NCBI GenBank assembly: GCA_036172245.1
Contig: JAYWIR010000092.1
Coordinates: 62,001-126,000, forward strand
Direction of reading: 5' to 3'
DNA: 64,000 nucleotides
Origin: Raillietiella orientalis
Lineage: Eukaryota
Under the pieces are notes generated by a model. That model was not told the origin of the DNA, made no database searches, and saw nothing but the letters and a program-made list of their open reading frames with translations. This document shows, one piece after another, positions 5,185-54,500 of the stretch; the stretch's first letter is position 1; the number at the start of each line of letters is the position of its first letter. The position numbers were made by a program, and so were the translations under genes.

Positions 5185-6738
5185 CAGTTTTCGCAGGACA
5201 CTGCAGTCCACAAGTGGGAAGGAAAAGACTCGATCTCTCCGTACCTCAAGCAGTTTGGCCAGGCAGCTCCCCCAGAAACGATCCCTCTTGCTCATTACGG
5301 TGTAGAACCTAGTGGAAAAACAGCAGCACATCTTTCCATTTCAAGGGAGCACGCAGCTGTCCAAACACACGGGGGATTTGCTATCTCTTTGGGGGGCATA
5401 CTTAAATATTCGTTGCACCGAAGCACCGATTCCGATGTGTGGCGACTTCCACCGACTCTTTTCCCATCCTTGAACCGATGAGCATAGACACTCCTTCAAT
5501 TGTGCAGGAAAAGTCTCATTCCGCCAGTAGGCAACTGTCACTGATTGCCCTGAAGGCAGACAGCACAGCGGCGAACAGTATGTCGAAAAGACGATCCGAC
5601 TTCTTGGACTTCATGAATTCGCCAAGTGAATGGGTGGAGAGAACTCTTAGACGTCGCAGATCTTCCGCGCTCATTCCTCCGCTAGCAACCAGCGATGCAA
5701 AACATTACTATCGCTACGCACTATTGTTTATAGGACGGCAGGAAATCCAACTGAGGGCTTCCAGCAGCGAGGAAAGCTGGCTCAGCGGGAAACCAAACCC
5801 TTTTCTAATGTACCGAAAGTGGGACAGCAACGGAAGCAGTCCCTCGCTACACGTGCAGCGCCTTAGTATAAGGCGTGCGGGTAAGCACCAAGGCGTACAG
5901 CGCAGCTTGGCACAGAGGCGCAGCATACGAAACTGCATCTGCAGCTTGATTCTTTTTATGTCGAGTATGAGAAGCCTTCATCCTGAGGCGGCACCACCAA
6001 GTCTTTAAGTCGTACTCGGGATCTTGCAGCGCTCCACAACGCTTTGCGTAGAAGGCGCTGCGCCCAGGCTATGACTTCCTGGGGGGTGGGTAAACAAAAA
6101 GCAGGGGGCGAGGGAGAAGAGCAACAAAGGTGTTCCATATGCTATCCCGTTCTGGCAAGACCAACTCGTCACCGGACAACGTACGAAGTGCACGCTCTGC
6201 CTACTGAAGGCAGTCTGCCTACTCTTCCCCAAGTCAGAAGAAGCCTAAAGGCATGCAAGATACTTGAAGCACCTGCTCGTGTGGTCCGCAAAAGGATGCA
6301 GTGGGACTGCCCTTTCGCGACGCAAGCACCAGGAAGACCATGCACTTGCAACTGTGGACGCTGACACCCGCTCCACAACGGAACAGATTAAAGAAATTCT
6401 CAAGCGACGCCGCTGAAGTGGACATGGGCAGCAGGAAAAGAAGGTATTCGAAATAGGCCGCGTCTGCCGGCGCATCAGCACAGGAGTTTGGCAGGTTGAT
6501 GAGCGTTAGCATGTAAGCCGGCATCAACAATCGAGAGTAGATACTGAAGAGCAACGCGCTTAAGCAATCGCCTTGAATGATATCGCGTTGTACCGCTACA
6601 CCGCACACGCAGCAGCCACTGAAATCCGTGAATGTTTCCTCAGGGCACCAGCCGGAGCGCAAGTACGACAAGAAAGCTGCCGTAGATGTTCCAAGTTCTC
6701 GATAAGAAACTTTTGATTCCCAGAGTGGAACGCCTTAT
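5185..6738 (-). pseudogene. Tx1-like ORF2 3' half (E-like), broken at the KAFD motif
   Basis: IIQGDCLS, SRVRLKDL and QFRMLRLCAKL..TPWCLPARL, close to 57244-58071. On the minus strand it starts with KAFHSGNQKFLIENLEHL, homologous to KAFDCVNQKFLLELLERL. Confidence 0.9.
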
Positions 6739-7260
6739 GCTTGCTGGGTGGACGTGTATTCTCGATACTCCTCGGTTCCAGGAACTTTCCCTTAGCATTC
6801 GCGCTGTGTGGCTCGGTGGTCGTTCAGGCCGCAAAGTTAGATACGACCAGCAGTGACTGCCAGTGGGAGACGGTGACCTCGTTCTCAGAGGCGAAGGTGG
6901 AGGAAGCAGTCACCCTTACAGAAACGTTACCTGCTGCAGCACGGGTATGGAGCGCGGTTGCAGCGGCGACTATGCTCGCTACCGCGGCGGAATTCAGTGC
7001 CTACGTGAAGTAGTGGTACAAACTCTCGTTACGTGACAAGGTAGGTAACATATACTGCAGAGGTCGCGCGTGACGTTTCCTAGGCGACAGGCGATCTCAA
7101 CCTTTAAGAGGAAGAACTTTGCGCAATGACCGTTCGCAGCGGGGACAGTATGTTCAGGTGATCTGCAAACAGGCAGATCTGTCCTTAGGTATGCTGAAAA
7201 TCCCCGTTTTCACAGAGACAAGCAGGTCTCTTTCCACTACGGTGGACCGCAGTAGTGTGG
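6739..7260 (+). mobile_element. Family C 5' end and start of ORF1, degraded
   Basis: Colinear with 28513-29040, including GGACGTG at 6750 and the VICKQA(D/E)L codons. Confidence 0.85.
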
Positions 7261-9612
7261 TCCAGCTGTAAGGAGTAACAGCACGGATACGGATGGAAAC
7301 CCTAAGGCCCAGGCCGCACACGACACCCCGGCGACCAACGCCGAAATTGTCAACGGAAACGGCAAGAAGCCTGGGCAGCAGGTGGCAGCAGTGAGTCTTG
7401 TAGAAGGGTTGAAGGGGCGTACGTTGAATCTAGAGGTCATCGCATTCATGACTTTGTTGAGGATGTCAATGGTACGCTGCCAATTGTCGTTAGACTGTGG
7501 TTGTGTTAGCAGAGATGTGAGACTCGGGCTGTAAGCACTGAGCACAGAATGTGTGTTTGTGTGTAGTGTATGCTGAAAGTTTGGCAATTCCTGTTGTACT
7601 TCAGAGTCACTCGATATGGGCTCGTTGGATTAGCGCAAAGGATACGGGTGAGTTAGATGTACGAGTGGCACGTTGTGTTGTGAAGTACGGGAAACAGGGG
7701 AATCTGATGGTACTCTTGGATGTTCAGGAGCGGTCAAAACATTTTGCTGTGCGTAAGAGATCCCTCATTTCCAGTTTATTAGGTAAAACGGTTCCGTGTG
7801 TTGCTATTGTAGCAAAACGATTGAATGTGGGTATCGAAGGAGGAGCACGTGGTTTAGGAAGTGGTTCCTTGCGTTGATTTTGCAATCGCATCTGCCATCG
7901 AGTTTGACTGTGTAATCCACTTATTGAGGGAAAGGTGGCTTTACAGTTGGAAATGCTACATTGGGAAGAAAGGAGTGCCACGGGAAGCTGCTGAAGAGCG
8001 ATGTGTTTAAACTATGGGTGGTGATGTGCATGATAGGAGATATCCGAGTTGCATTTCCCGCAGTGCAGCTTGTGCTTGCAAAAAGACCGCTTGTGTGCAG
8101 TGCTTAAGTGGCGTTAGAGAGCGAAGCGTGTTGCTGAAATCGAGATTTTGTGTTTTACAGGAATAAAAAGGTATTCGAATGTCCGTGCGTGGGGGTTAGT
8201 GGGAAAGGAATTGGGTAGTGTGGACGCAGTAGAGGTAGCAAGGACTCGAGCTAGAGGTGGGGTTATAACTCACTGACGAGGAGAGCTTCGGAATCAACGG
8301 TGGTATTTGTTTCTGGTTGTATTTCGGAGAAGGGCCTTTGCGCTATATAGATGAAGGTGACACGGAAGCAGCACTATGTATTGGTTGCCAAGTGGTGGGT
8401 GAAGGGTCATCTCTGTTAAGTATTGGAGCAGAAATTGATTGTGTGATGCTATGCATGGTGTGTGCAGCATTCTCAAAAGGGCATGATGTTTCAGCCGAAC
8501 AGTAATCTTCCCGAGCGATCGCACTCTAACGAGGGATGTTTTGCAACTTATGGTGAAAGAGGTTGGTGTAATGGGAGGGTAGCGTAGAGGGGAAACTTTA
8601 GCGGAGAAAGTTCCTGGGAGCATGACGCGATGCTGATTTTCTACATCAGCAAATGTCAGTGATCAAGGCGACAGCGTGGATTTCATTTGACGTGAATCTA
8701 GAGGCGATTAGGCATTGGGGTCTGCTTGCAGTTGCTCAGTCATATAAGAATCAGTCAGTGAGAGAATTTCGGCAGGTAAAGGTCGGAATACGTCTTTGTG
8801 ATGTTGGAAAATGGCAATTGCTTTTTGTGTTCCAGTAGTCATTACAGGTTGTGGTTCGGGAATCACATTGTTGTCAGGTTCACGTTGAGCAGTCGCATTG
8901 AGCGGTGGTTGGTAGTTGCTTGATAATTCGATGACAGTCGCTGATTGGTCTTCAATGGGGTGTTCGTATGTTGTTATGTAACTAGTGCCAGGTTTTTCGT
9001 CGAAGGCTCCGTGTAGTAACGATTTCTGGGTTTTTGATGTACCGTGTGTTGTCCGCTTGTGAGTACAGAGGTGGCTTTTACAGTCGAAGCTGGATGCACA
9101 GGACGCGCATGAATATTTAAGTTTTTTCAGGAAACGAGGAAGCGCCACATTTCGAATTGAGTAAGTACATTTATGAGTCGGAGGAATAGTGGAACACATC
9201 TGCAGTAAAATCGTATTGGTCACAAAAGCAAGTGGACCTTTGGGGAGTTCCACCATGTATACGTGTCAGATGGTGCTCGAGGTTACGGGAACAATTGTGC
9301 CTTTCTTCGGCAGAGGATGCGATTTCACAGTCAGGAATAAAACATGTGCAAGGACGTGGAAGCGAAATGCAAATATATAACCCACGGTTGGCGTATAAAA
9401 ATGCAATTTGCGAATTTTGTTTTCGAGTTTCCATGGTTCAAAGAGTGGTTTCTCTCATGTGACCGGAGTAAAGGGGAATTTCCCACAAACGATTGCAAAG
9501 GCAGGCACAGCAGTGCATGCGAAGACGGCGTTAGGGGTACAGGCTCAACTTCAGCTACGTTGAACGCGGTAAGAGTCTGTTATATGTGTGGCACGTGGTC
9601 GCTCCGCCATCT
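7260..9612 (-). pseudogene. Decayed multi-C2H2 zinc-finger ORF, possibly the N-terminal part of an unrelated retroelement
   Basis: CFIPDC...HLTRIH (9171..9434), CASCASSFDCKSHLCTHKRTTH (8708..9256) and CSISNCKATFPSISGLHS (7724..7981). Candidate start AAGATGGCGG at about 9610. Many frameshifts; no RT seen. Confidence 0.5.
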
Positions 9613-11419: not shown

Positions 11420-12053
11420 TACGTTGCTGAACCGCGGAACAGGTGAGGTTTCCGCCTCATTTCGCTCATCAAAGGTGTGCCTTCTACATAAGGAAGATCT
11501 GAGGAACGTGAACAAGTATCGCAATAGTCAATGAGGACACCTTATTGCTGGCTCAGTTGTGACCTTCGCGGCTAGGACAAGTTGCAAACGTTTCCATCCG
11601 CTCGCAGCAGACATATGCTATTACCGGGCGAAGCATTATAGGTTAAACTTTTCCACGCTTCCAAATGACTGGATCTCTAGCATGAAACGGGGTAGATGCG
11701 TGACGGAAATTCCGTTGCGTACGTCGCTAAGGAGGTCGATGGTGAACAGAAAAGAACGCCCTTGCGGTGGCTGTCGACTTGCATGAAAAACATCGATGCA
11801 TGGAAGAGAAAAACGTGTTCGATTTTCTGTAACGCTTGGGCTTCCCAGCCTATCTGAGCTCCAGTTGGTCCGACGCGCTCATCAACGTTTTTTTCGGCAA
11901 GCACACCGTGCACACTGTTCCGATGTTGCGTGGCATACGGCAGGAATATAGACTGAGCCCCTTGCTCTTCAGTACCTTCATCGAGTTGATATTCAGAGCC
12001 TGCAGGCAAACTCAAGCGAACCTGCCTCGCGACTATCCCGGTACGCCTGCGGA
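11420..12053 (+). pseudogene. Tx1-like RT fragment (C/G-like)
   Basis: GFPAYLSSSWSDAL...RGIRQEYRLSPLLFSTF (11836..12171). It fuses directly to the right arm of the inverted repeat. Confidence 0.85.
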
Positions 12054-13166
12054 TGCACATTCCACCCAAATCTCAGGTGAAACAGTGCCTTGCTCCAGCA
12101 TGCAATTCAATAACGCTGAATTATTGCTGGTGATCCATGAAACTCTTTTCTCGTATGAGACTTACAGCTGAGATTAGCAGTTTAATTCTGACCTGTCGGG
12201 TGTGCGGTGGAACGTATGAAAACGTTTTCGTACGTAAATATCGAGTGAACATTTATCGCGAATTCCAATATCGGAATCGGAAAAGTTGTTTTCCATGCTT
12301 AATTGTGACCATGTAAACAAATGCATCCCCAAATTCAAATTGCATTGCCGCCTATTTTGACTGCAGCTTTGTTTCAGACTCCCTGGAAGAGAAAATGAAA
12401 AACTGATACTGCAGACACCATTCGTGGCAAATTGCACTTTTCCGAAGAACTTGAATTGCTGGCTGCAATTCCAGGAAGCAACCTGATCAAAGTGACGAAA
12501 CTATAGTGCTCAATTGCTTTCACATGATTGCTAAAGCGAAGCTATTAACCGCTTGTTCTTTGGTTCCATTGGAAGGGTGTGCATTGACATAAAGGTCTGC
12601 TGACTTTATGGCACGGCATGGGTTTCATAACGATCCAAATAAGGGAACACAAACTAAATTTTATTTTTTCCATGTGTGTTTGGAAAAGAAAAGTTGGTTT
12701 ATACTGTAAAAGAGGGATCGGTAAAGCTGATTTCTCCAAGATGAGAGATCACGGGGAACAGATTCACGACACCCTGTGTGACGCTAATGAAAAGTTCTGG
12801 GGAGGAACACGGATACTGGTTTGTAGGATTGCCTTCATCGTATAACAAAAATGGTACGATGGTCGCGAAATCGAGAAGAAAAACATTGATGGTTGGCGAT
12901 TGCGAACAAAGAAATCAGGCGTTTCGTAGTTTCTTTGCCTATAGAGACGTTCGGACATCTCCGCTCGAGCTGATAAGCTCGCATGCTTACTGTGCGCCAA
13001 GAGGGATGTCGGCCACACTGCATGGTACCTTGAAGGTTTGGAAGAACTGAGTTTTTCTTTTCCTCGTTTGTTTATTAGCAAAGGCAAGTTAAATTTACAT
13101 ATGAAGTCAATTGCCTCCCAGGCCACTAGCAAGTTGAGAAACGAGCAACTTTTTTCTTAGATCACG
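12054..13166. repeat. Right arm of the inverted duplication (partner 1-1114)
   Basis: Reverse complement of 1-1114 with scattered substitutions and small indels. Confidence 0.95.
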
Positions 13167-13679: not shown

Positions 13680-13942
13680 ATGTAGCAGCCAGTGCCATTC
13701 TTACAGAGGCGAGCAATTCTGCTCCGTACATGATGATGATCCCTGATCCCTTCTCACTTTCCCACGTTTTGCATTTTTGTGTTTGTTTCCGCTTCTCCCT
13801 GCTGCCGTGGTGGACTGTAGCGCCTTGCGAAACCTTGCCTCAGAGGCTCTGTGTTTCTGCGGGCGTGGCTGGATCACTGGTTTTAAGTGTAGGGGGTTTG
13901 AGTTTGCTTGTAATAAACGCCCTGGCGAAAACCAGGTGAGAA
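13680..13942 (+). mobile_element. Short 5'-truncated family C copy (essentially the 3' UTR)
   Basis: CCCTGCTGCCGTGGTGGACTGTA...GGCTCTGTGTTTCT...GCGTGGCTGGA matches 28347-28425; ends AATAAACGCCCTGGCGAAAACCAGGTGAG. Confidence 0.8.
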
Positions 13943-14039
13943 TCGATTGCTTAATGCACTTCGGGAGCTCATTTTCAGACACATATATCCTGATTAAAGT
14001 AGTCTAAAGGGATTTGATTTTGAAGTGTAAAGCACGGTG

Positions 14040-20955: not shown

Positions 20956-21280
20956 CAAAGCCGAAACCTCTAGGAAGTTGATGGAGAAGGAACTGGTAGC
21001 AGAACTCTCATACTGAACGTTTTATTTTGTTCCAGTCAGAGAGAGTCTGCAGTTCGCAACCACGCAGAAATGCACGCAGATGTTCGCGCGCTCCTGCAAG
21101 TCGAAACCAGTCTCCCAGCAGGCGCTACGCTTCGGAGGGTGGACATCTGTCGCGAGGATGGATGTTCAGCACAAGCCGAGGGTGATCGGATAACTCCGAT
21201 GCGAGTAATAGAGGTTAGTGCGTGGCACCAGCAAGCGCTAGTAAAGCAGGAGATCCGTCGAAAATCCAAGGCGTTCCAAA
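20956..21280 (-). pseudogene. Scrambled Tx1-like ORF2 fragments
   Basis: The minus strand reads GDWFRLAGAREHLRAFLRG...KRSV.EFCYQFLLHQLPRGFG and, separately, LERLGF. Confidence 0.7.
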
Positions 21281-29868: not shown

Positions 29869-29960
29869 CAGTTGGAGGACGTGTTTTCCCTTCACTCCTC
29901 AAAGAGTAGTAGGAAAGCGCTTTCTTGTGGGTGGTGTTTTGTGTACATCGTCGGTGTCCA

Positions 29961-32176: not shown

Positions 32177-32254
32177 GAGTGCGGACGTGCTTTTCTTCGC
32201 TCTCGTCTCCGTGCTTTCATCCGCTTCATCTTGGCGTCGTACATTTTGACGACG

Positions 32255-38167: not shown

Positions 38168-40088
38168 ATGTCGACCCAACTTGAAGCTACTGAAGTTGGA
38201 GGAACAGCATCCGGATCTGCAATCGCGGAACCGACGGCCGCCTCCACTTCGTCTTTCTCGCCAATGGAGAGGAATTTTGCTGACGTTGCTGCCACAGCAG
38301 CCGTCAAAGGGAAACCACTCGACGAGTCGGAGTTGTGGGCATACGTAGTCCAAGGCTATAGACCTGCCCTCCGATATAAGGTGAGTGGTTTTCTTTCTGC
38401 GCGCGACGGGAATCAGTTCAACGATGAACTGACCCGTGTTGGCGTGCGGGAGGAGGACCTTCTCGGCATTATGCCCGTGAAAGACATGGGCTATTTCAAG
38501 GTGCGTTGCAAAGACGCTGCACTTGTGCAACGCTTGCTGCGCACCCCGTTGTCGATCCGTGGCCAGAAGGTCTTCCCGGCCGCCATGGACGACTCATTTC
38601 TGGCGGAGATTTTCGACATCGAGTCGGAAATCTCCGATACTGAGATTCGGAACGCGTTGGCGAAATTCGCCACGGTCCATGCGCTGTGGAGGGTGCGTAG
38701 CAACCTCAAGGACTTCCCGTCCATACACAGCGCAGTCGCTGGAGTCCGGCTTACAATGCCGGACCGCCGTCTGCTGCCCACCAAACTACAGGTGAAAGAC
38801 ACGGTCGTTCACCTGTGGTTCGTGGGCAAAGTGAGAACGTGCGAGCAATGCGGGAAGGAGGGGCATTGTTTGGATAAATGCCACTCTGGAAAATGCCGAT
38901 ATTGCAAAATATCCGGGCATCAATTGAAAAATTGCCCGGATCTTTTGCGAAAAAAGGCAGCCGAATAGCTTCATCTTAAGAAACAAAGCGCGGATAAAAA
39001 GAAAAAATCTGCGAAAAACCTGGAGACCACACGGCAGAAATTCCGAAAAAACGCGAGGCGGAATGTCGCTCCAAAGCAGCTGGAAACCTCGCACGCGAAG
39101 CCCTGCGCGCCTCCTCTCGCGGCTGGGGAGCCCAAAAGAAAGGGTGCGGGGAATCCGGGGCAATGATAAGTCCCCCTAGGCGCAATAGCTGTCCTTCCCA
39201 AGCACGACCGGCTCTCTCGGAGTTCGAGCAACCGGCGGGGACGTCAATGGACAACGGCGGTAAGGACACTTCCAGTACCTTCAGATCCATTCCTTCACCT
39301 GGTGCAGGGGCTGAGAAGCCCAAATCGGGTAAGAAGGGTTGTGCCGTGTCGACTACGAAAGTCGGAAAAAAGAAATTGCGTCGCGATCCAACACCGCGAA
39401 AGCGGAGAAAAATCTTACGCAATCGCAGTCGGAGAGCAAGCTGCCGACTGGCGCGGATGCCATGCCAACGAAGGGAGTAAAAGCCCTTGCGAAGGCAGCG
39501 TCCATGACGAGCGTGTCGGAGCCATCGAAACTGCTCCCGTTTAAAGAAGCGCATGGCTTCAAAGATGGCAATGGAGCACAATCTCCATTTATGGCGCCAC
39601 GCGAAGTTAGGAACCGTAATGAAGTAAAGAAGACTTCAGCAAAGGTCCCTCGTGCAACTGCGCGTGAGCACGCTGAAAACGCGCACGCCGGGAAAGCAGC
39701 CGTCACCAACAGCGATGCTCTGGAGACGGAAAAACACAACAGGACAGCTGTCAATTTAGCAGAACCTGTCACTACTTCGCGGAAGGCCGAAACTCAATCG
39801 AACATGCGCCGATCGGACTCCGAGATGGATGCCGTTCCGATCCCCGAAACGAGGACAACTCGTTCGAAAGCGTGTGCGCGCCGATCAAAAGTTGGCAGCC
39901 AGGCAACGCTAGCCGGGAAGCAGCGCGAAGTCTCCACGAAACCCGACGGGGTTCAGCCTGGCGTGGAGGCATTACATGCATGCAGCACGACAGAGGACGG
40001 TGGCGACCGTCCCCTCCAGCCAGTAGTGCTGCTCGCCGTCTGCTCGCCGGATAAAGCGAGCAAAAAGCCGCCACCTTCCCAGCAGTAA
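38168..40088 (+). pseudogene. A2 ORF1
   Basis: Near-identical to A1 ORF1; stop at 38966-38968 and frameshifts. Confidence 0.9.
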
Positions 40089-43000: not shown

Positions 43001-43687
43001 AGGGCAAGAAACGACAGTTACCAACCGGCGAGGTGGGAGATTTCCTGCACAATAGCGGGAAAAACCAAAATCGTTGGCGCCTGGAAGACGAGTGAGTTGG
43101 CGGACGCCGCCACTTCTCGTGTTACTGTAAAGGGACTCCTCCGGTGTCCAGAAGAACTTGCTGTCACCCCCGGAGAACTTGTAGTCCCTCCACAGTGTAT
43201 TGACAGTTCGCTGCTCCCCCTTGCTTGGAAACAAGCCGTGCTGCTTTTCGTTCACTGGGGTTTTCAGTGCAACGAGCGTTGGCATCGTGACTCCGGGGGA
43301 CTTGCGTCTGCGAACTGCGTTCGGTGCGGATCGACGGAGTTGATTCCGCACCTACTTGTAAACTGCGGTGTCCTACAAGGACTGTGGCGTAGGCTGGCAA
43401 CAGCACTAATGCATCCCGTGGACACCGCAAGAGACTTGCTGCGACGATTCTTCACGCCGAGCGGGCTGTCACTAAGCGCAAGGATTGCAACCATCGGTTG
43501 CATACGCGCGATAGTTTCCGTCCGCCAGGCGTTGGTAATCGACGGACAGCACCAAGTGGTTATCAGCAAAGCATCCTTCTACATGGGAGCATCCGCTAGA
43601 TGGCCTCATTTGACAGAGGAGACAAAAAGGAATCTCGCCGCAATACACCACCGGTTTACACACCCTCAGCAGCGCCCAACCCGGTGA
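40088..43687 (+). pseudogene. A2 ORF2
   Basis: Same motifs as A1; YADD has become *ADD at about 42082; CVRCGSTELIPHLLVNC is intact. Confidence 0.93.
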
Positions 43688-44008
43688 TCATTGCCCTACC
43701 CTCCATAAACTAATTTTGTATTTTCTTTTTACACCCGCGTCCCCATAGGTTCCAGAACATTTTAGGTGCTCATCGTTTAAATCCCCGTGAGTACGGAGAG
43801 TAACCAAAAACCCTCATCCATTCCCTCCAGTTTTTGATTTTTGTTTGTTTCCCCTCATTCCCCCACGCTGCGAGCAATTTGTTTACCAGGCCTGCGTGCC
43901 GGTAATTTTTCTATGTTCTCTGTCGTTCTGTTGGTTGGGGACATTGTCCCTGACCAGTTTATTATTATTAATAAACACCGCGGCGTGACCGGGTGATAAA
44001 TTTCAATC

Positions 44009-47000
44009 TCCGTCTGCTAACAGGTGAGCCCGAAACACAAGTGAAAGCGATGAACGAGTTGTGCGCCGATATGCGTGCGGGCAACTTGTTCGCGGGTGAG
44101 AGGGGAATGGTCCGTAGCATCGACCACGTCTTCCTCGACGCTGACCTGTGTTCACGGGACGGCAAACGGGAGAGGGTTGCGTCAACGTTGTCGGACCATT
44201 CCCGGTTAATTTTCGAGATGCGGCCTCGCAACAAAGGACCGCCATCCAGGGACTGTCGTCTACCCGGTGACTGGACGCGACTCTCAGGTGCGAAGGAACA
44301 CCTTCTCGAATACCTGAGAGGCGTCACGCTCCGGAATCTCCAGGACTGGTACCTTTTTGGGTAATCTGTCCGGCAGTTCTGCGAGCAGTTCCCCCTGGAC
44401 CGCCTGCCCTCCGGATTCGGCGAGGGTCCTTGCAACCATCATGCCTATTTACAGGCCTGTAGGTACGAGCGAACGTCTAATGTCCGTCGCCCGGCCCAGT
44501 ACCGCGCCGGGGCCGAACGCCAAGCCTGGCAATCCCGGTCGGCCAGCTTGCTGGACGACTAGGGCCGGGAATGTTCGTCCCTGGCGTCGTTACGGCATCT
44601 CGTGCGGAGTTATTATTCCTCCCTTTACGCCAGGGCGCCCCCGAATCAAGAGGCCTCTCGGCTTTTGCTTCCGGATGGTGCCGCGTCAATAGGGGAGGAG
44701 GAGTCGTTAAGCCTCGATGAGCCTTTTACCACCGGCGAAATTCTCGCCGGTATCAAAAGGCTCAAGAAGCCGAAAGCTCCAGGGGAAGACGGCTTGCCCG
44801 CGGAGTTCTATCAGAGCTTCGCGGAAGAGCTGGCACTCCTGCTGCTTCAGCTGACAAGACTGATCCGAGACGAAGCCGATGTTCCCGCCTCGTTTCGGTC
44901 AGCCAGAGTGAGGCTCCTTCCGAAAGGGGGAGACCTTAGGAATTTGAACAACTGGCGTCCTATCACGATTGTGGATACGGACGCCAAGTTGGTTGCCGGG
45001 CTATGGGCTTCGCGTATGGGGCAGGTGGCAGAATCCATAATTAGCCAGTAGCAGAAATATGCTGTTCCCGGGCGAAGTATGGATGCCAACCTCTTCTTCG
45101 CGAGCACATGGATGCACGCGCAGAGGTGTCAAAAGGAAGGGAAAGGAAAAATCGGCAACCCCACTTTGCGGCCGCCAGCAGGGCAGGAAATGGACTCACA
45201 GGCGGGGAAGGGGGCCTTAGCACTCGCAGTTGATCACCATAAGGCGTTCGACTGTGTTGACCAGGAGATTTTGGAGGAGCTCCTGGTTCGCATGGGCTTC
45301 CTACCCTCCTTGATTACCTACCTGCGCTCTTGCTGGCGGAAAGCGATTATCTCCATCTCTTTCAGTAGTCAGAAGGTGAATGGCGTGCCAATGCGGCGGG
45401 GCATCAGGCAGGGAGATAGCCTGTGTCCCTTGCTCTTCAGCACCTACTTTGAGTTGGTGCTGAGAGCCTACTGCTTGACTTTGACCTCCTTGCCTTGCTC
45501 GAGTCCCGGCACGCCCGCCGTAGGAGCCTATGCCGACGACCTTCTGCACCTGTTACCTATGCCCTCCCTGGCAAAGGCGGTCGGAGACTTCTTCGATCTG
45601 CTCAGCCTTTTGATCGGACTGCAGGTCAACAGGGCGAAGTCGCCGGTGGTGCCAGTAGTTGCGGCGTGGGCCAAGTAGCAGGACTGGGTCCGTCTGGAGA
45701 TCCCCACGGCGAGGTGCCTCAAGTACCTTGGTGTGCCGTTGGGTGACTACTCCCCTGCGGAAGCGTGGTCCAGTGTCTTCAAAAAGTTGATAGAGCGATC
45801 GGCCGGTTCCTGGAAGGCAAGTTTCACTTGCAGGAACAGACCGCGGTTTGGAATGCTTTTGCGGCCCCCATCCTCCGCTTCTTGCTTTTTGTTTGCCCAT
45901 CCACCGTGGAATCGAAGAAGAGGAAGAAGGACCTCCTCCGTATCGCCCTTCGGGGCAAGAGAAGGCCCCGAGTCCCTCTGAAGGACTTGTGCGCTCCGCG
46001 TCGGGATGGCGGCCTTGGCCTCCTGACGCTGGAGCGCGTGGAAATCCAGCTGCGGTTTCGAACCCTCGCCATCCCAGCGAAAATCTGGAGCACCCCTTGG
46101 TGCGTTCCGGCCCGCCTTCTTGCCAGGCGTGTGTCCCGATGAGAAGGACTCGCGTCGTTTCTTCTGTGCCCTGGCCGGAAGATCCGAAGATGCGGCCTTA
46201 TGCTTGGACGCATAGCAACCCTGGCGAAGACGGACGGTCGCATGGTTTGTGGTCCCGCCAACTTCTCCGCCTGGTTGCAGGAGTCTGCTGGCACATGGGC
46301 CAAGCAGAACCGGAGGAGTGAAAACAATATGGACTGCCTGCGAATCGGCCCATACGCCAACCGCACCCTGCGGGAAATACTGGAATTTCCCCGGAGTCGC
46401 AGGTGGGCGTTGACGACCCCTCTTGCAACGGCGATGCCCTACCTCCTGAGGGCGCTTCAGGATCGCCGGAAGCCGAGGTGGTAAGTCACCTGCCAGATCG
46501 CAGGCAGGGAGAAGATGTTAAGCGGCTGGACCACAGGAGAACTGGCGAACGCCACGACCTTGAGCGTCCAGCCGCGTGGATTAATGAGATGGGGCGAGCT
46601 GCTCGCCATCCCTACGGATGTGCTGAAGTGGCCACCGGTACTAAAGGAATCCAGGATCCTGCCCCTTAAGTGGCAAGAGTCGGCGTTGCTACTGCTGCAC
46701 TCGAGTTTACCCTGCAACGCACGCTGCTTCGACTGGACAAGGGGAGCTGTGGATCCTGAGTGTGTCAGGTGCGGAGAGCGCGAATCGCTCTCCCACCTCA
46801 TTGTGGACTGTGCTGCCATGCGAACCCTCTGGGAACGGTTCGGGGCGACCCTCGGGCTCCCTACGGGCAGCACCCCCAGAGACGTTCTTCGGCCCCTTTT
46901 TGTGAAGGGCGCACTGCAGCCAGCCGCAGCCAACGCAGCCTCGTGCTGTGTCCGTGGCATTGTGGCGGCATGGAGCGACGCCAATAACGAAGGAGTGGGT

Positions 47001-47140
47001 CCACACGCGATGGATGTCATCCCATACGCCCAACGCTTGATGCGGAGAGCTGCCGGATGGCCCCAACTGGGGAATATACGGACAGACATGAGGGCTTCCT
47101 TCAACGGATGGGCCCTGCTTACAGCGTTTAGTGATCTCTT
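44009..47140 (+). pseudogene. B ORF2 remainder (endonuclease C-half, RT, CCHC finger)
   Basis: IDHVF, SDH, PGEDG, VDHHKAFD, GIRQGDSL, AYADDL, CVRCGERESLSHLIVDC; several stops. Confidence 0.93.
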
Positions 47141-47725
47141 CCCTGCCCTTCAACTTCTCTTTGTCTGTTTATTTTTTATTTTTCTTTTTGTTTTATCCTC
47201 ATCCCCCTTCGCTGCTGAGGAACGCTACGCTGGGCTGCGTGCCGGCGTCCTGGCAAGTCCAGTGTATATGGCCGTGAGCGGGGCCTTGTACCGCGGATGT
47301 AGAGTTTTAACAATAAACGCCCCGGGCGTACCCGGGAGTATACCTCCAAGGCTGGCAAAAAGCGGTGAGGCGTCCGGCCTCCACCGAGGAGTCGGTTAAT
47401 TCCGACCCCGAAGCGCAGGCCGGAAACCAAGTTACCATCTCCGCGGCACCCCGCCCGAAGGCTGGAAGGAAGTCCAGCAAACCCCGGAAAGCCCCTCTCC
47501 AGGTCGAAGGCGTGGAGATTTCTTCCGACTGCGAGGGTGCCATGAGCGTGGGAGAATACCGGGAATCGAATCACCCGAGAGACCACCACGCACAGACACG
47601 GAGGAGATGGAGGATGTTGAAGCTGGAAAGGTACTCAAGGTGCCTGAAGAGGCTGAAACCCTAATGGTCATCTCACCCGCCTCGGAAGAGGCGGTTTCCC
47701 CCACACCGTCATCTTTCAGGCAGTA

Positions 47726-50700
47726 ATGCCGGAAATCTCCTCCCGCCGTCGTCTGCGCATCGCCGTTTGGAACGTGAACGTGATGACAGACGCCGGCATG
47801 AGACGAGACATGGCCGCCATTCTAGGATCGTTCGACCTTGTGCTGCTGCAGGAGATCCATGTGATCTCTGCAGAACAAGCGCAGGAGATCGAACGCATCT
47901 ACGGAAGGCGGCTGTGGTATCGGTGTGGAACATCGAGAAGTTGTGGTGTCGCTTACCTGCTTCGGCCCGCCATCGAGGCCGCCGCTCGTGGAGTTCGGTT
48001 GGACGATCACGGTCGTGTCGGCCAGCTGACTCTCAGCTGGTCCGACTCGATCGACCTGATCGTTACGAACGTTTACGCCCCGAGCGGAGCGGACCTGACG
48101 AACAGGAGGGCCAGGAAAGAATTTTTCCTTGCCCTCCATCGCGACTGGTTGAACGAGGCAGGCGTGCGGAATGCCCATCTGGTTGCAGGGGATTCTAACG
48201 ATCGTTTGAAACCGGATGGGCCGAATCACGAGCGTGACCTGGTCAACGAGGTGTGCGCGGCGGTGCACACTTGTAATTTGTTGGTCAGTATACCAGGGAT
48301 GGAGGACAACATCGATCACGTGTTCCTTGACGAGCACCTGTGCACTCGTGTGGGCAGGCGCTGCAAGTTGCCGTGCGAGTTGTCCGACCATCGACCAATC
48401 GTGATTGAAATCCATCCGCGCGACAGGGGCCCCCCCTTGTCAGCGTGGCGTTTGCCAGGGGACTAGCTGAAGCTCCCGGACGCGACGGAATATCTCCGCA
48501 CGTTTATACGGAGCTTTAGGATGCAGACATTTCAGGATTGGGACCGCTTCAAGCGGTCGGTCCAGGAGTTCTGCGACCAGTTCCCACGGCACCGCCTACC
48601 TTCGGAATTTGGGGACGGGATACGTAACAAACGAGCCTATCTGCAGGCTCGCCGTTTCGCTAACACCCCCGACATACGCAGGCTGGCGGAATACATAGAG
48701 GGACCCGAGAGGCAAGCCTGGCAGTCAGGATCTGCCAGCTTGCTGGACGATCTGGGCCAGGAGCACTCGGCACCTGCCAAAATCCGCGGCCTGCTGCAGA
48801 GTTACTAATCCTCCCTGTATGCCAGGGCACCTCCGGAGAGGAACGTCTCACGACTCCTGCTTCCGGAAGGCGCTCCAGCGATCGGGGAGGAGCAGAGAAA
48901 GACCCTCGACGAGCCTTTCACGATGGGCTAGATCATCTCGGCCATCTTAAAGCTCAAGAGGCGAAAGGCTCCAGGGGAGGACGGCCTGCACGCGGAGTTT
49001 TATCAAACTTTCGCGGCTGAGCTAACCCCCCTGGTACATCAACTCACCTTGCTGATACGCGAGACAGGTGACGTTTCCGCCTCGTTTCGTTCGGCAAAGG
49101 TGCGGCTTCTCCCTAAGGGAGGAGATCTGAGGAGCATGAACAACTGGCGTCCCATCACAATAGTGAATGCGGATGCCAAGTTGATAGCTAAGGTTTGGGC
49201 TGAGCGCTTGGGACGGGTTGCAAACGCCTTCATCAGCCCGGAACAGACGTATGCTGTTCCTGGGCGAAGCATGGAGGCGAAGCTGTTCCACGCTTCCACC
49301 TGGCTAGAGCTCCAACACGAATGGGGCTTGATGCGCACCGGGAATTCCGGTGAGTCCGTCAGTCATGCGACGGATGTTCGGATGGGGGAGGGAGCACTTG
49401 CGGTCGATGTCGACTTGCGTAAAGCATTCGACAGCGTCGACCAGAATCTCCTGCTGGAGCTTTTGGTACGCTTGGGCTTCCCGGCCTCATTTTTGGCCTA
49501 TCTGCGCTCTAGCTGGCGCGATTCGCAAATGAATGTAACTTTCAGCGGGCATACTGTTCACGGCGTGCCGGTGCGACGTGGGATCCGGCAAGGAGAAAGC
49601 CTGAGCCCATTGCCCTTCAGTACCTACTTTGAGTTGGTACTGAGAGCGTACAGGGAAACTCCGGCGCACCTGCCGCATCAATGCGCCGGAACGCCTGCGG
49701 TTTCAGCATATGCGGACGACCTCCTGCTACTGCTACTTATGTCCACCCCGGCTTCGGCGGTCGAGAAGTTCTTCGACCTGCTGAATCGAGGAACCGGGCT
49801 TACGATGAACAGGGCGAAGTCGTCCGTGATGCCAGTTGGTGCGGCGTGAGCAGGGCAGCAGGACTGGGTCCGTTTAAGAATCCCCACGTTGAGGTACTTC
49901 AAGTACCTTGGTGTGTTGTTGGGGGACTACTCCCCTGCGAAAGCGTCGTCCGGCTGTCTTCAAAAAGGAGAGACGGCTATCGGCCCGTTCCGAGGCGGCA
50001 GGTTTTTCCTGCTTGAACGGGCCGCGGTTTGGAACATGTTCGCTGCTCCTCTCCTCCGTTCCCTGCTTTTTGTTTGCCCCCCCACAGAGAGGATCAAAAA
50101 GCGGACGAAGGACCTCATCCGTATCGCCCTTTGGGGCAACGGGAGGGCCCGAGTCCGCTGAAAGGACTTCTGCACTCCGCGTCTAAACGGTGGACTCGGC
50201 CTCCTGACATTGGAGCGGCTGGAGCTGCAGCTCGAGTTCCGGATTTTGGCACTTGTGCCGGAGTGGTGGTGCACCTGTTGTTGCGTCCCTGCACGTCTCC
50301 TCCTTCAGCAAGCCACCGGCAAGACGGGACTTACGTCGTTTCTTGCACTCCATCGAAGCCGCATCAGCCGATGTGGGCTTCAGCTACGGAGGGTGGCTGC
50401 GCTTGCAAGGAAAAATCATCGATGGATCACCTGTCTCCCCGCGAACGGTAGTGCCTGGTTGCAGGAAACCGTTCGCACGTGGGGACAATTCGGCATGCAA
50501 CCCTCCCATCAGGAACGAAGGTTCCTGTTTGGGTGTTACAGAAGTTGCACGTTCCGTGAGATCCTGTAGGATCATAAGAAGAGAGCGTGGTCAGGAATAA
50601 CCCCCCTCGCTGCTGCGCTGGACTCCCTAGTGGAACATCAGGACAGCGATGTTGCGGCGAAGTGGGAGGTTACAATAAAAATCTAAGGGAAGGAGGAGCA

Positions 50701-51308
50701 GAGAGAGTGATAGACGGGCCAGCTAACTGATGCTGCGACCCCGAGTACGCCTCCTAATGGACTTCTGCGCTGGGGAGCGCTGCTGGATGTTCCGATTGAA
50801 CATCTTAAGTGGCCCCCGATTCTTATGAACACTTCCATCCTCCCCCTAAAATGGCAAGAGTCGGTATTCCTGTTGTAGCACTGGGGACTCCCCTGCAACG
50901 CCCGTCGACACCACTGGACCTGGGGAGCGGTGGATCTTAATTGTGTAAGGTGCGGGGAACGGGAGTCCCTCCCCCACCTCCTAGTGGATTGTGTTGCCCT
51001 TCGGCCCCTTTGGTTCCGCTTCGCCGCGGCCATCGGTATCCCACGCGGCAACCCCAGGGACGCACTAAAAGCCTTCTTCGTTGACGACCCATTGCGGCCA
51101 GCGTCCTCGATAGCAGCCTTGTGCTGCCTTCGTTGGATCGTCGCCACCTGGAGCACGGCCACGGGAGGACCTAGCGATATGGACGCCATCCAGTGCGCCT
51201 CCCATTTCCTGAGGAGGGCGTCGCGATGATCCCACCTGGATGTTCATAACAAACAAGAGCTTGTCAGCATCCTGAGAGGGATGATGCGGCCCCAGCAGCA
51301 TCAGTGAT
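47726..51308 (+). pseudogene. C ORF2 (endonuclease, RT, CCHC finger)
   Basis: WNVN, LQEIH, GDSN, IDHVF, SDH; DLRKAFD, GIRQGESLSP, AYADDL; CVRCGERESLPHLLVDC; many stops. Confidence 0.93.
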
Positions 51309-51522
51309 CCCTTCCCGTTTCCTCCCACTTTTTGTTTCTTTTTGTTTAGTTTTTCTGTTTTTCCTTTTTCCCATGCTGCCTTAGTGGACCGTACCGGTCT
51401 AGAAACCGGTGAATTGGCAGGCTCCGTGGTTCTTAGCTTCTGGCTGGAGCATTGCCACAGCCATTAATTATTACTTTATAAAGTTCATTTTATAATAAAC
51501 GACCCGGAGAAATCCGGGTGAA

Positions 51523-54500
51523 AATCGAACGCTTTGTAGAGATCGACGGCGACAGCTAAGGCTCCCGGCGTTCCATCGTGCCTTGAACACCGCCGCTTAC
51601 CTTTGGCAGCGGCGATTTCGGCTGCCTGGCTCTGCTGCGCCACGCGCTCCAGCAACTCCAACTATGTTCGCGCGAAGAAGAGATTCGCGTCCAAGGACCG
51701 CCCCGAAACAGCATACGTCTGCTCCGGACTTACCAAGGACTCCGCGATTCTCCCCAAGCGAGCAAACCATAGCATGTAGAACAATTTGACGTCCGAATGC
51801 ACCAAGGTTATCGGACGGCAGTTGCTGAGGTGGCGCAAATCACCGCCATTCGGCAGGAGCCGCACCATTGCTGAGCGGAAAGAAGCGGGAACCTCTCCCG
51901 TCTCACACATCAGCGAGGAAAGACTTAGCACCAGGGGGACGAGCTCCGCCGCGAAGCACTAAAAGTACTCCGCGGACAGGCCATCCTCCCCAGGCGCCGT
52001 ACGCCTCTTTAGGCCCGCTATGGCGGGAGATACTTCTACCGCCGTGAAGGGCCAATCCAATCTGGCGCGTTCCCTTTCGTCGATAGCAGGGTTACCCGTC
52101 TGAAGAAGCAGCTCGGAGAGACTGCGTTCCGTGGGCTCCTTCGCGTACGAAGAAGAGTAGTAGCGCTTGACTACGCGGTGTACTCCTGCTGCAGCCGAGC
52201 ATTCCTGGCCAGCGTCATCGAGCAGACAAGCCGCTCCAGACTGCCAAACCTGGCGCTCGGCCCTCGCCTTGTACTCCGCCAAACGCTGGACGACCGGGCA
52301 TCGGGAGAAGGTACGCGCCTGCAGATAGGATCTGCTGTTCGCGACACTTTCCACGAAGCCGCGGGGAAGCAGGTGCAAGGGGAACCGTCAGGATTACTCC
52401 CGGACCGATCTTCTCAAATCGTCCCAGTTCTCGAGTTCACGGATGGCAAAGCCCCGGCGGTGTTGTCAAAGATGCTCCACCGCCTCCGAATTGCTAAGCC
52501 AGTCGGCCGCCAACCTCCAGACATCCATCGGAGGCCCTTTGCCAGGCGGGAGGAGCTCGAACTCCAGTCACCGATGATCCGAAATCGCGGACAGCAGGCG
52601 CCCTCTCCGACCTACTCGTGAGAGCAGGTGTTCATCGAGGAACGCATGGTCCGGCGAGCTCTCCATCCCGAGCTCACCAGCAAGCAAGTTTTGCACGCGA
52701 ACGGACGCGCATACCTGGCTCACCAGTTGCTTCTCCCTCAAGCGGCATCTCTCCTCTGTTAGCAGGTGGACGTTGAAGTCTCCTGCAAGGAGGTGCGCCA
52801 CGTTAGGGCCGGAGACAGCGAGCCAGCGGCTGCGCAGGCCACCCAGGAATGCAAGTCGCTGGGCGAAATGCCGGCCGCCGCTCGGCGCGTAGATATTCGT
52901 AACGACCAGGGCGATCGATTCGGACCACTTGAGGACAAGTTGGCCCACACGACCTTCCTCGTCGAAACAAACGTTCCGCACCGCCTCCGCCACCCTGCCT
53001 CGGACGAGGAACGCGACTCCGCACGTGTGCGCGGAGCCTTGCCGCCAGTGTAGCGTCCCGCCCGCGCGCTCTTCCAGATCCGATGCCTGCCGTACGGAGA
53101 TGCTGTGTATCTCCTGCAGCAGCACCAGATCGAACGCGCGCAAAGCGTTGGCAACCTTCCGCCTTTTGTCAGCATCACATAGCCCGTTGACATTCCAACA
53201 GGCCACGCTGACGCGACGAGCGGACGCGAGTCCACGCATCACTGCTGCTGAAATGACGGCGTGCTCCTCGCCGTGTCCGGCGAGAAGTCATCTGGTAAGA
53301 GAGCGGATTGGGAAGCGGAATCGCTCCCGTTCGCCGCCACATCGCACCCAGCTGAGTCCTGGGAGCCGAGGATGATCGCCTCGGTCTCCGTGCAGGAGCC
53401 GGAACCGCCTCCGGCAACAGGCTCTTGCTTCCGCAGTTAAGCCCGGCGCGCTTGCTGGTTATCCCGAGATGCGCGCACTCTTTGGTTGCAATCGGACTCC
53501 ACCTCGGATTCCGAGTGCCTGGCGCGAGACTGGCGTTTTGCCTGTCTGTTTTTCTTTCGGCAGGTGGAGGCTTGCCCTGCCCTCGCGGGGTTCGTCGCAG
53601 TCGCCAGCGGAGCGTCCGGAGCTTTGAGTTCCGCAGCCGCCCTCTCGCGCGAAGCGACGCAGACAGAGCACGCAGCCGTAGTGCTTACCTGGGTACGCAC
53701 CTTCTTCGGCGTGCTTCTCTTTTGCCTCCCACCTACCTTAAGGATGGGGAATATTGAAGGGTCAACCTTCTTCTTCTCCTTTGTGGGCGTTCTGGAGACT
53801 CGAGTCCAGCCCGCGTCGGGGACGCCCTCCTGGGAGGCCGACGCTTCCCTCAATTGTTTGGCCGGAGATGCCGGCTCACGTTTCGCGCTCGCGGCGGGAG
53901 ACGGCTCGGTCCCCGTTACGCACTGCACCTGCTCCTTAGCCGATGCGGGCGAAACGGCGGTCATTGCAGTCGTCCCGCGAGGCGCTATTGCAGCCTTCGC
54001 TGCTCGTGCCTTCGGCGAGGAAGACGTGATCTCCACCGCCGTAGGAGACTGCCGTTCAGAGGCAGCTCTGAGGGTACCCGCGCACGGTTTCCCGTGTGCT
54101 CCGCTGGACGCGCAAGCGGACGCGGACGGTTCAGCAGCCTTGATTGAGTGCGTGCCCGCACTCTTAAGCTGCTTCGAAGGGGGCGATTTGCCCCCAGGGC
54201 GACGTGGCATCTTACCCGTCTGCGCGGTTCTCTAGGATGGTGGCTTTCCTGAAGCAACCGCGGCCTTTTTCGCGGTACCGCCACTCAAAGATGCCCCGCC
54301 CTTCGCGCCCGATTTCTACCGTGGCACAACGGAAGATCTTTTCGGCGCGGACGGGGTGGATTGTTGGCGGCTTTTCGCCTGCCTCTTTCTCTTGAGCTCG
54401 GCGCACTCTTTGATGGAGTGGCCGAGCTGTTTACAATAGCGGCAGTTGCGTGAAGGGCACGTCCACGGACGGTGGCCTTCCGCACCGCAAATGCCGCAAG

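What the first reader, a model, noticed from the sequence alone, without database searches (positions are those of the whole stretch)
6724..51537. Family C appears to be a site-specific retrotransposon that targets the RT 'KAFD' codons of related retrotransposons
Seen: four C junctions fall at the same 15-mer, the antisense strand of the (H/Y)-K-A-F-D codons. They are AGTGGAACGCCTTAT at 6724-6738 (host E-like, followed by a C 5' end), AGTCAAGCGTCTTGT at 28311-28325 (host A, followed by a C 3' stub), AATCGAACGCCTTGT at 28498-28512 (followed by the C 5' end) and AATCGAACGCTTTGT at 51523-51537 (after the C 3' end; host D). Three different host families are cut at the same motif, always antisense. 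A fifth C end (13940) abuts AATCGATTGCTTAAT, a similar sequence in non-RT DNA. Known: Tx1-clade elements often have sequence-specific APE endonucleases (Tx1L into Tx1D; Keno into U2 snRNA), and DxxKAFD holds the first catalytic Asp of LINE RTs. Inference: C uses a constrained, multicopy, host-neutral target and inactivates competing LINEs when it inserts. I do not know of this being described. Caveat: the C-related G copy ends at a different site (26255).
Basis: partly seen in the sequence, partly recalled or inferred. Interest (0 to 1): 0.92.

Follow-up and report, generated by a model that had tools for sequence, protein, structure and literature searches.

The report
LINE that lands in rivals' RT motif
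In this pile of nested LINE retrotransposons, one lineage has landed at least three separate times, always backwards, on the same 15 bases that encode the catalytic K-A-F-D motif of other LINEs' reverse transcriptases, so it looks like a site-specific element that uses rival elements as its landing pad.

Summary
All four 15-mers are at the stated coordinates. Each is the antisense strand of the (H/Y)KAFD codons of a LINE reverse transcriptase, and each abuts a C-type end.

Aligning six uninterrupted paralogous sites shows the 15-mer belongs to the host on both the 5' and the 3' side of C. It is therefore a 15-bp target-site duplication, not C's own terminus.

Codon-position patterns show that the hosts, and the C copies, diverged as active lineages. 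That gives at least three independent insertions.

New points:
- The C 5' part (28513-29868) and 3' part (47343-51522) are one full-length element flanked by a 14/15 repeat.
- That element is split by a nested element B, and B is split by a tandem pair of A elements at the GDFN codons of its endonuclease.
- The fifth flank (13941) still resembles an RT KAFD region over 25 nt.

Weak points:
- Only one window was available, and no genome-wide flanks could be obtained.
- Every copy is old.
- Relative G sits at a different site.
- The hosts left and right of C belong to different families.

Best reading, confidence 0.65: a sequence-specific APE-type LINE lineage that targets the KAFD codons. This is a new variant of a known kind.

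The parts
5085..6738 (-). Host 1 (E-like LINE): the 3' part of its RT, residues about 97-590, ending at the KAFD codons
   Evidence: blastn 5085-6740 against E 56532-58218, 71.5%; tblastn to A RT residues 97-590
6724..6738 (+). 15-mer AGTGGAACGCCTTAT, the antisense strand of (H)KAFH; left target copy before the C-like 5' end
6739..7362 (+). C-like element, 5' part (5' motif GGGTGGACGTGTATTCT)
   Evidence: 66.8% to C 28521-29074, then 7306-7362 to C 29482-29538
11421..12057 (+). C-like RT piece, colinear with the 5' part; probably the same element
   Evidence: 68.4% to C 49046-49705; differences per codon position 0.244/0.186/0.365, p=1.2e-4
13776..13940 (+). C-like 3' end with AATAAACG, hairpin and GGTGAG
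13941..13965 (+). Flank AATCGATTGCTTAATGCACTTCGGG, which resembles an RT KAFD region; no LINE homology follows
   Evidence: 17/25 to E's site and 18/25 to G's. It is the only one of the 8 window 25-mers with 17 or more matches that is not in a recognisable RT. No LINE homology up to about 15170
26857..28325 (-). Host 2 (A-copy): RT residues 94-586, ending at the KAFD codons
   Evidence: 89.9% to A 35880-37348; tblastn 82% amino-acid identity
28311..28325 (+). 15-mer AGTCAAGCGTCTTGT (now reads KTLD); left target copy of the stub
28326..28497 (+). 5'-truncated C-type 3' stub
   Evidence: 74.6-76% to C 51349-51522
28498..28512 (+). 15-mer AATCGAACGCCTTGT between the stub and the full-length C; left target copy of C
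28513..29868 (+). Full-length C, 5' part (5' UTR and ORF1)
   Evidence: 5' motif; ORF1 homology; contiguous with 47343 onward in the uninterrupted relative 55285-55998
29869..47342 (+). Nested full-length element B, which carries A1 and A2; flanked by CCTCCAAGGC at 29859-29868 and 47343-47352
32168..44007 (+). Tandem pair A1 (32176-38080) and A2 (38089-43999) inside the GDFN codons of B's endonuclease, with ATTTCAAT at 32168, 38081 and 44000
   Evidence: (95.0% over 5.9 kb)
47343..51522 (+). Full-length C, 3' part (EN, RT, zf-RVT, 3' UTR with hairpin)
   Evidence: Pfam, tblastn, 3' motif
51523..51537 (+). 15-mer AATCGAACGCTTTGT, the right target copy of C; antisense strand of host D's YKAFD
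51523..55265 (-). Host 3 (D): its 5' part, comprising 5' end, ORF1, EN, linker and RT residues 1-101
21277..26256 (+). G, a relative of C (72.7%). Its 3' end lies against the antisense EN-RT linker of another LINE, not at KAFD

Best explanation
C-type elements are APE-type LINEs (ORF1; ORF2 with endonuclease, RT and zf-RVT) that integrate by target-primed reverse transcription at one defined sequence. That sequence is the antisense strand of the codons (H/Y)-K-A-F-D-(C) of other LINE reverse transcriptases.

Inferred from the junctions: the host sense strand is nicked at 5'-TTCGAYT^GY and primes the cDNA. The other strand is nicked 15 nt away, after ..CTTGT^. The 15-mer ARTCGAACGCYTTRT is therefore duplicated on both sides.

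Each copy of the duplication restores the whole site, so it can be hit again. This produces the head-to-tail arrangement stub, 15-mer, C.

The site is multicopy and held constant by selection on the host elements' catalytic Asp. An insertion splits the host RT.

Shown: the anatomy, the duplication and the independent recurrence. Inferred: that the element's own endonuclease reads the site, as in other site-specific APE LINEs, and that the specificity holds genome-wide.
For: 1. Position. Three host RTs of three families are broken at the same nucleotide, all antisense to the C-type insert.

2. The 15-mer is host sequence on both sides. Left-hand hosts (E-like, A-copy) align with six intact sites up to ..CTTRT and then diverge into C. 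Right-hand host D aligns from A(A)TCG onward (blastn ends at 6740/58218, 28325/35880 and 51525/35892).

3. The full-length C (28513-29868 plus 47343-51522) is flanked by AATCGAACGCCTTGT and AATCGAACGCTTTGT, 14 of 15 identical.

4. Independence. Host A-copy against host E-like differ at 0.359/0.294/0.480 of codon positions 1/2/3 (p=1.4e-8). C-like against C differ at 0.244/0.186/0.365 (p=1.2e-4). They therefore diverged under coding selection before they were inserted.

5. Family restriction. 3 of 3 C-type 3' ends (C, stub, C-like) are followed by the motif, against 0 of 6 other 3' ends (A1, A2, B, B-like, E, G). Fisher p=0.012, or 0.048 if G is counted as C-type.

6. Chance. 19 matches against 8.48 expected. 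The flank at 13941 is the only KAFD-like 25-mer outside a recognisable RT.

7. Domains. PF03372 in 6, PF00078 in 7 and PF13966 in 2 of the 59 ORFs scanned. The endonuclease of A is closest to human L1 endonuclease chains in the PDB (E 7e-6 to 1e-3).
Against: - G is as similar to C (72.7%) as the stub (about 75%) or the C-like copy (about 67%), yet it ends at another site.
- The host left of C is 90% A-like and the host right of C (D) is only 71% A-like. The 14/15 pair therefore cannot simply be one insertion into one host. Recombination between two occupied sites, or some other rearrangement, must be assumed.
- The flank at 13941 loses all LINE homology after about 25 nt.
- Perfect or near-perfect sites in A1, A2 and B are unoccupied, though these elements are nested inside C and so are younger.
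- All copies are decayed: 8 stops in C 48932-51300. There are only 3-4 events, all from one 64-kb window.
- No genome-wide data could be obtained.
Confidence: 0.65

Rival explanations
1. Targeting by RNA-DNA pairing rather than by the endonuclease. C transcripts made from copies already sitting in KAFD sites read through into the downstream 15-mer. This 3' tail anneals to the sense strand of another RT gene, which then serves as primer. The specificity would be inherited with the flank rather than encoded in the protein.
For: AATAAA lies only about 23 nt before the element's end, so cleavage beyond the end is plausible. All three C-type 3' ends carry the 15-mer, including the one at 13941, where host homology stops after about 25 nt. 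A role for read-through 3' flanks is recalled from work on R1Bm; I did not read that work here.
Against: At the 5' junctions the 15-mer continues into host RT sequence, so a staggered cut at this site is needed in any case. No complementarity between C's UTRs and the target flanks exceeds chance 7-9-mers. The two mechanisms are not exclusive.
Confidence: 0.15
2. The junctions are not independent. One or two old insertions at a KAFD site were spread through the array by segmental duplication, gene conversion or unequal exchange between LINE copies, and no site preference exists.
For: The region is heavily rearranged: scrambled A-like pieces at 26224-26856, different hosts on the two sides of C, and a 97% inverted repeat 1-1120 / 12048-13166.
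Against: Hosts and inserts differ by about 30%, with an excess of third-position changes. That marks divergence as active elements, not as dead duplicates. The junctions also differ in structure: with a stub, without a stub, and a 3' junction. Gene conversion would need tracts that end exactly at a 15-mer.
Confidence: 0.1
3. Regional, Zepp-like nesting. LINEs of this genome insert preferentially into existing LINE clusters, and the KAFD coincidence reflects a short nick preference shared by the whole superfamily (flanks begin with AT after ..GGGTGAnAA) together with luck.
For: Nearly every insertion in the window lies inside another LINE. A, C and E share the 3' end ..GGGTGAnAA followed by AT... 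Nested self-targeting LINE clusters are described for Zepp/ZeppL (PMC8226300, passages).
Against: A 2-nt preference cannot place three events at one nucleotide and one orientation of a roughly 6-kb host. The non-C families use other sites: GDFN, CCTCCAAGGC, EN residue 66, and linker residues 30 and 58.
Confidence: 0.1

Closest known systems
Tx1L / Tx2L of Xenopus laevis (Tx1 clade, APE-type LINEs that insert into the DNA transposons Tx1D / Tx2D)
   Same: An APE-type LINE whose target lies inside another transposable element. A review states that Tx1 retrotransposons target Tx1d (PMC6719617, passage read).
   Different: Here the target is a protein-coding catalytic motif of related LINEs, hit antisense, and shared by several host families. 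Clade membership was not tested. Details of the Tx1L site are recalled, not read.
Other sequence-specific APE LINEs: Tx1-clade Keno (U2 snRNA gene) and R1-clade elements (28S rDNA, telomeric repeats)
   Same: A precise 3' junction in a conserved multicopy sequence; occasional tandem insertion; target-specific families concentrated in the Tx1 and R1 clades (PMC4640811, passages read). R1Bm EN cuts both strands of its site (PMC1919474, abstract in a search listing only).
   Different: Their targets are host RNA genes or simple repeats, not another retrotransposon's RT gene. A 15-bp duplication at an RT motif was not described in anything I read.
Zepp / ZeppL L1-type LINEs of green algae
   Same: LINEs that build clusters by nested insertion into existing copies, giving arrays rich in 3' ends (PMC8226300, passages read).
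   Different: The texts I read describe no defined target sequence. Higashiyama 1997 is not held. Here several families are interleaved and each junction is at a defined site. No relationship to Zepp was tested.
R2 (RLE-type LINE in 28S rDNA)
   Same: The same logic: a conserved, multicopy target that the host tolerates losing.
   Different: A different endonuclease type (restriction-like). The elements here carry PF03372 APE domains.

Membership tests
APE-type non-LTR retrotransposon (LINE) | ORF2 with an N-terminal AP-endonuclease domain followed by a reverse transcriptase | tested here: met
   C: PF03372 at 47657-48463 (E 1.6e-10) and PF00078 at 48932-49846 (E 3.5e-20). The same order is seen in A, B, D, E and G by tblastn.
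APE-type non-LTR retrotransposon (LINE) | Target-site duplications, 5' truncation, no LTRs | tested here: met
   15-bp repeat around C (14/15); 10-bp repeat around B; 8-bp repeat in three copies around A1/A2; a 172-bp 5'-truncated stub. No terminal direct repeats of the elements appear in the self-comparison.
Sequence-specific LINE | Most copies in the genome lie in one target sequence at one position and in one orientation | tested here: inconclusive
   In the window, 3 of 3 C-type 3' ends and 3 of 3 C-type 5' junctions lie at the 15-mer, and G is elsewhere. Genome-wide this is not testable: no genome is held, and the run X1 output was cut (6 of 300 loose ends shown, none at 51522-51537).
Sequence-specific LINE | Head-to-tail arrays with the target repeated between units | tested here: met
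   Stub, 15-mer, C at 28326-28513. The same is seen for A1, ATTTCAAT, A2.
Sequence-specific LINE | The endonuclease (or another element protein) cleaves the target specifically | not testable with these tools
   Needs biochemistry.
Tx1 clade | Placement within the Tx1 clade in an RT phylogeny that includes reference elements | not tested
   No named reference LINE sequences were available. The RT of A has only 2 hits below 1e-30 among 1.84e9 representatives. The named distant hits (28-30% identity) come from an alga, a fish and a tick.
Zepp-like (ZeppL) L1 elements | Phylogenetic grouping with Zepp; poly(A) tail (recalled) | not tested
   No Zepp sequence was at hand. The 3' ends here finish in a hairpin plus GGGTGAnAA, without a long A run.

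The most novel reading that the evidence does not exclude
The LINE lineages of this genome parasitise each other through motif-directed homing. C-type elements home to the KAFD (RT catalytic Asp) codons of A/D/E-type elements. A-type elements home to the GDFN (endonuclease catalytic Asp/Asn) codons of B/C-type elements. Synonymous codon choice at the motif (Ala GCG in every occupied site, against GCA/GCT/GCC in unoccupied older ones, including C's own) acts as immunity. The nested array would then be the record of an arms race between retrotransposons, not of passive accumulation.
Probability: 0.15. Interest if true: 0.9.

Novelty: new variant of a known kind. Interest (0 to 1): 0.66.

Why it matters
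Site-specific LINEs are known to use rRNA, snRNA or tRNA genes, telomeric and simple repeats, and in one case a DNA transposon. A LINE whose landing site is the catalytic-motif codons of other LINEs' reverse transcriptases would be a clear case of one retrotransposon parasitising and disabling its competitors. Selection on the victims themselves keeps such a target constant.

It would make conflict between transposable elements directly testable, through occupied versus empty sites, synonymous escape variants and endonuclease assays. It would also add a natural APE endonuclease with a long (about 15 nt) recognition site.

My six literature searches, and the passages I read from them, turned up no description of such a target. 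The library lacks most subscription papers and Repbase notes, so this is not proof of novelty.

Tried and rejected
- Whole genome: none is held.
- Earlier notes of this scan: none by place, sequence or words.
- Metagenome scan with the 3'-end pattern: 7 loci, none with LINE context, about the number expected by chance.
- Genome contigs with the RT of A: 59 pattern matches, 0 confirmed.
- Sequencing run X1 (the only run listed, word share 0.12): 481 short contigs laid, 261 of them under 90% alike. Only 6 of 300 loose ends and 8 of 515 pieces were shown, and none was at the C/D junction. The 'opposite strands' joints are explained by one RT contig matching B(+) and D(-) piecewise. This gives no support either way.
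- Protein search with the 58-aa ORF that spans the D|C junction (..KAFDFHPDFSGSF..): no candidate of 31-102 aa; longer lengths were not searched.
- The RT of A in the two protein collections: 7 hits and 10,648 hits. Only P0001 (57-58%) and P0008 (74%) are close, and both pass through KAFD uninterrupted.
- Protein Atlas: generic RVT_1 clusters only.
- RNA-guide idea: no complementarity between C UTRs and target flanks beyond 7-9-mers, with single 11- and 13-mers in one copy only.
- 5' transduction as an explanation of the A-copy + stub left of C: no 15-mer at the 26856 boundary.
- RNAalifold on eight 3' ends gave only 3 pairs, because loop lengths shift the register. Single folds were used instead.
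- Pfam on 35 ORFs of the non-LINE stretches: only a sub-threshold c-SKI_SMAD_bind hit.
Full report
WHAT THE WINDOW IS.
Bases 3.6-64 kb are a pile of nested APE-type LINEs. Of 59 long ORFs scanned against Pfam, 7 carry RVT_1, 6 carry Exo_endo_phos, 2 carry zf-RVT and 1 carries zf-CCHC. tblastn with the ORFs of the best-preserved element, A, maps ORF1, endonuclease (EN), linker and RT segments on both strands. A self-comparison shows several families that are only 65-77% identical to each other. No whole genome is held for the window.

THE OBSERVATION.
- On the opposite strand they encode (H/Y)KAFD in register with the RT genes.
- I aligned the five junctions with six uninterrupted paralogous sites: A1, A2, B, G, C's own site and E.
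- The two left-hand hosts, E-like at 6694-6738 and A-copy at 28281-28325, follow the intact sites up to ..CTTAT/..CTTGT and then switch to C-type sequence.
- The right-hand host D follows the intact sites from A(A)TCGAACGC.. onward (..TTTGTAGAGATCGACGGCGAC).
- The 15-mer is therefore host sequence on both sides of the insert. It is a 15-bp target-site duplication, not part of C's terminus.
- The pattern ARTCGAACGCYTTRT (up to 3 mismatches) has 19 matches against 8.48 expected (0 of 100 shuffles reach 19). Of these, 13 are RT KAFD sites or C flanks, 5 of the 13 touch a C-type end and 8 are uninterrupted.

REVISED ANATOMY.
- A second full-length 5' end (GAGGACGTGTTTTCC) lies at 29875. A LINE 3' end (AATAAACGCCCCGGGCGTACCCGGGAGTATA) ends at 47342.
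- Both are bordered by CCTCCAAGGC, at 29859-29868 and at 47343-47352.
- A related fragment at 55285-55998 runs uninterrupted across this site. It aligns to 29691-29868 and then directly to 47343-47889.
- So 28513-29868 and 47343-51522 are the two halves of one full-length C, split by element B (29869-47342).
- B is in turn split, in the codons G-D-F-N of its endonuclease, by two head-to-tail A elements (95.0% identical over 5.9 kb). The 8-mer ATTTCAAT occurs before, between and after them (32168, 38081, 44000).
- The full-length C is flanked by AATCGAACGCCTTGT and AATCGAACGCTTTGT, identical at 14 of 15 positions.
- Directly to its left lie a 172-bp C-type 3' stub and another copy of the 15-mer belonging to the A-copy host. 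This is a head-to-tail arrangement with the target repeated, as expected when a duplicated target is hit again.
- The C-like element that starts at 6739 has colinear pieces at 6746-7298, 7306-7362, 11421-12057 and 13776-13879. It is probably the same element that ends at 13940.
- Its right flank (13941-13965) matches E's KAFD region at 17 of 25 positions and G's at 18 of 25. It is the only one of the 8 such 25-mers in the window that does not lie in a recognisable RT. After it, no LINE homology is found up to about 15170.

INDEPENDENCE.
- If the junctions were copies of one dead junction, host and insert would have diverged neutrally.
- Instead, differences between the A-copy and E-like hosts fall at 0.359/0.294/0.480 of codon positions 1/2/3 (p=1.4e-8).
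- Differences between E-like and E fall at 0.263/0.242/0.366 (p=9e-6).
- Differences between the C-like RT piece and C fall at 0.244/0.186/0.365 (p=1.2e-4).
- Hosts and inserts were therefore separate, selected lineages before they were inserted.
- I count at least three events: C-like into E-like, the stub into A-copy, and the full C into D or into the stub's duplicated site.
- For a host of about 6 kb with two orientations, two further hits on the same nucleotide by chance have a probability of the order of 1e-8 (my arithmetic).

FAMILY RESTRICTION.
The other 3' ends whose flanks can be read lie elsewhere:
- A1 and A2 at GDFN codons, in the sense orientation.
- B at CCTCCAAGGC in C's ORF1 end.
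- E, antisense, at EN residue about 66 of a C-related fragment (56002).
- A B-like copy, antisense, at linker residue about 58 (about 20950).
- G, antisense, at linker residue about 30 (26256).

That is 3 of 3 C-type ends against 0 of 6 others (Fisher p=0.012), or 3 of 4 against 0 of 5 if G is counted as C-type (p=0.048). A1 and A2 may not be independent of each other.

MECHANISM.
- Shown: the staggered geometry.
- Inferred from standard target-primed reverse transcription: the strand that primes C's cDNA is the host sense strand ending ..AAR GCG TTC GAY T-3'. The opposite strand is cut after ..CTTGT, 15 nt away.
- All families end in AATAAACG, a 5-7-bp GC hairpin and GGGTGAnAA. All eight 3' ends fold into that hairpin (-3.6 to -13.4 kcal/mol; z-scores 0.0 to -3.5). 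One copy carries a double change, CCTGG..CCAGG. There is no long A tail.
- By analogy with other site-specific APE LINEs, I take the endonuclease to be the reader of the site. This was not tested.
- A pairing role for a read-through 3' flank cannot be excluded. A guide-like complementarity in the UTRs was looked for and not found.

WHAT SPEAKS AGAINST THE READING.
- G is as close to C as the other C-type copies, yet it sits elsewhere.
- The host left of the array is 89.9% identical to A. The host on the right (D) is only 71.2% identical to A. The two sides are therefore not one host element. Exchange between two occupied sites, or another rearrangement, has to be assumed.
- Perfect sites in A1 and B, and a one-mismatch site in A2, are empty. 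They lie inside C and are therefore younger.
- Every copy is decayed.
- Everything rests on one window.
- I could not get genome-wide flanks. Run X1 yielded 481 short contigs and truncated tables. The metagenome, genome-collection and protein searches found no further copies. The RT of A has only two close relatives among 1.84e9 representatives, and both are uninterrupted.

A PATTERN WORTH TESTING.
- The three occupied sites have the Ala codon GCG (now ACG in the A-copy).
- The unoccupied sites outside the C nest have GCT (E), GCA (G, and C's own site) or GCC (the distant family at 17702).
- The numbers are too small for a claim.

COMPARISON WITH WHAT IS KNOWN.
- Target-specific LINEs cluster in the early-branching, Tx1 and R1 groups. 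Tandem insertion at the target occurs (PMC4640811, passages).
- Tx1 elements target the DNA transposon Tx1d (PMC6719617, passage).
- Zepp/ZeppL LINEs build clusters by nested insertion into existing copies (PMC8226300, passages).
- The present case works like these. It differs in that the target is the catalytic-motif coding sequence of related LINEs, shared across families and hit antisense.
- Clade membership (Tx1, L1 or Zepp-like) was not tested, for lack of reference sequences.
- Six searches and the passages I read gave no description of such a target. Higashiyama 1997 is not held, and Repbase notes and most subscription papers could not be searched.

VERDICT.
The best explanation is a KAFD-codon-specific APE LINE lineage, with confidence 0.65. 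It is a new variant of a known kind. Interest is 0.66, limited by the single window and the age of the copies.

Noticed in passing
32168-44007: Two A elements (95.0% identical) lie head to tail inside the G-D-F-N codons (GGAGATTTCAAT) of element B's endonuclease, in the sense orientation. ATTTCAAT is present three times on the + strand, only at these junctions. The other GDFN sites in the window read GACTTCAAC, GACTTTAAC or GATTCTAAC and are uninterrupted. This is a second case of a catalytic-motif codon used as a landing site.
   Followed up: partly
29859-29868 and 47343-47352; 55453-55462: Full-length element B (29869-47342) is inserted in C's ORF1 end with the duplication CCTCCAAGGC. The same site is intact in a related fragment at 55285-55998. 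A B-like copy ending near 20950 uses a different site.
   Followed up: yes
55969-56300: E's 3' end (56002, minus strand) abuts the antisense strand of a C-related endonuclease at residue about 66. One contig of run X1 (383 nt, 21 differences plus 6 gaps) spans this junction with 31 nt on the left side. That suggests either a second copy or a diverged allele carrying the same junction.
   Followed up: no
13913-13940, 26230-26256, 28470-28497, 38052-38080, 43971-43999, 47314-47342, 51495-51522, 56002-56028(-): All families share a 3' end made of AATAAACG, a short GC hairpin and GGGTGAnAA, without a long poly(A). One copy keeps the stem through a double change (CCTGG..CCAGG). This is possibly the RT recognition element.
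   Followed up: partly
3646, 6748, 28523, 29875, 32181, 38094: Full-length elements of different families share a 5' motif, G(T/C)GGACGTGT(T/A)TTC(T/C). One more full-length 5' end lies at 3646, in sequence with no detected LINE homology upstream.
   Followed up: no
26857-28325 versus 51523-55265: The RT halves left and right of the C array belong to different families (89.9% and 71.2% identical to A). The cause is unexplained; recombination between two occupied KAFD sites is one possibility. Scrambled A-like pieces (RT 586 | ORF1 66-232 | linker 1-41) lie at 26224-26856.
   Followed up: partly
1-1120 and 12048-13166: A 97.3% inverted repeat of 1.1 kb with no recognised domains. One arm interrupts the C-like element.
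   Followed up: no
8711-9265 (-): A 185-aa ORF with a sub-threshold match to c-SKI_SMAD_bind (E 7.8e-4, 20 bits against a cut-off of 25). It lies between the pieces of the C-like element and may hint at an animal genome, but the evidence is weak.
   Followed up: no
KAFD sites 6724, 28311, 51523 versus 17702, 24139, 49419, 58202: Occupied sites have Ala = GCG (one is now ACG). Unoccupied sites outside the C nest have GCC, GCA, GCA and GCT. This could reflect sequence discrimination or escape, but the numbers are very small.
   Followed up: partly
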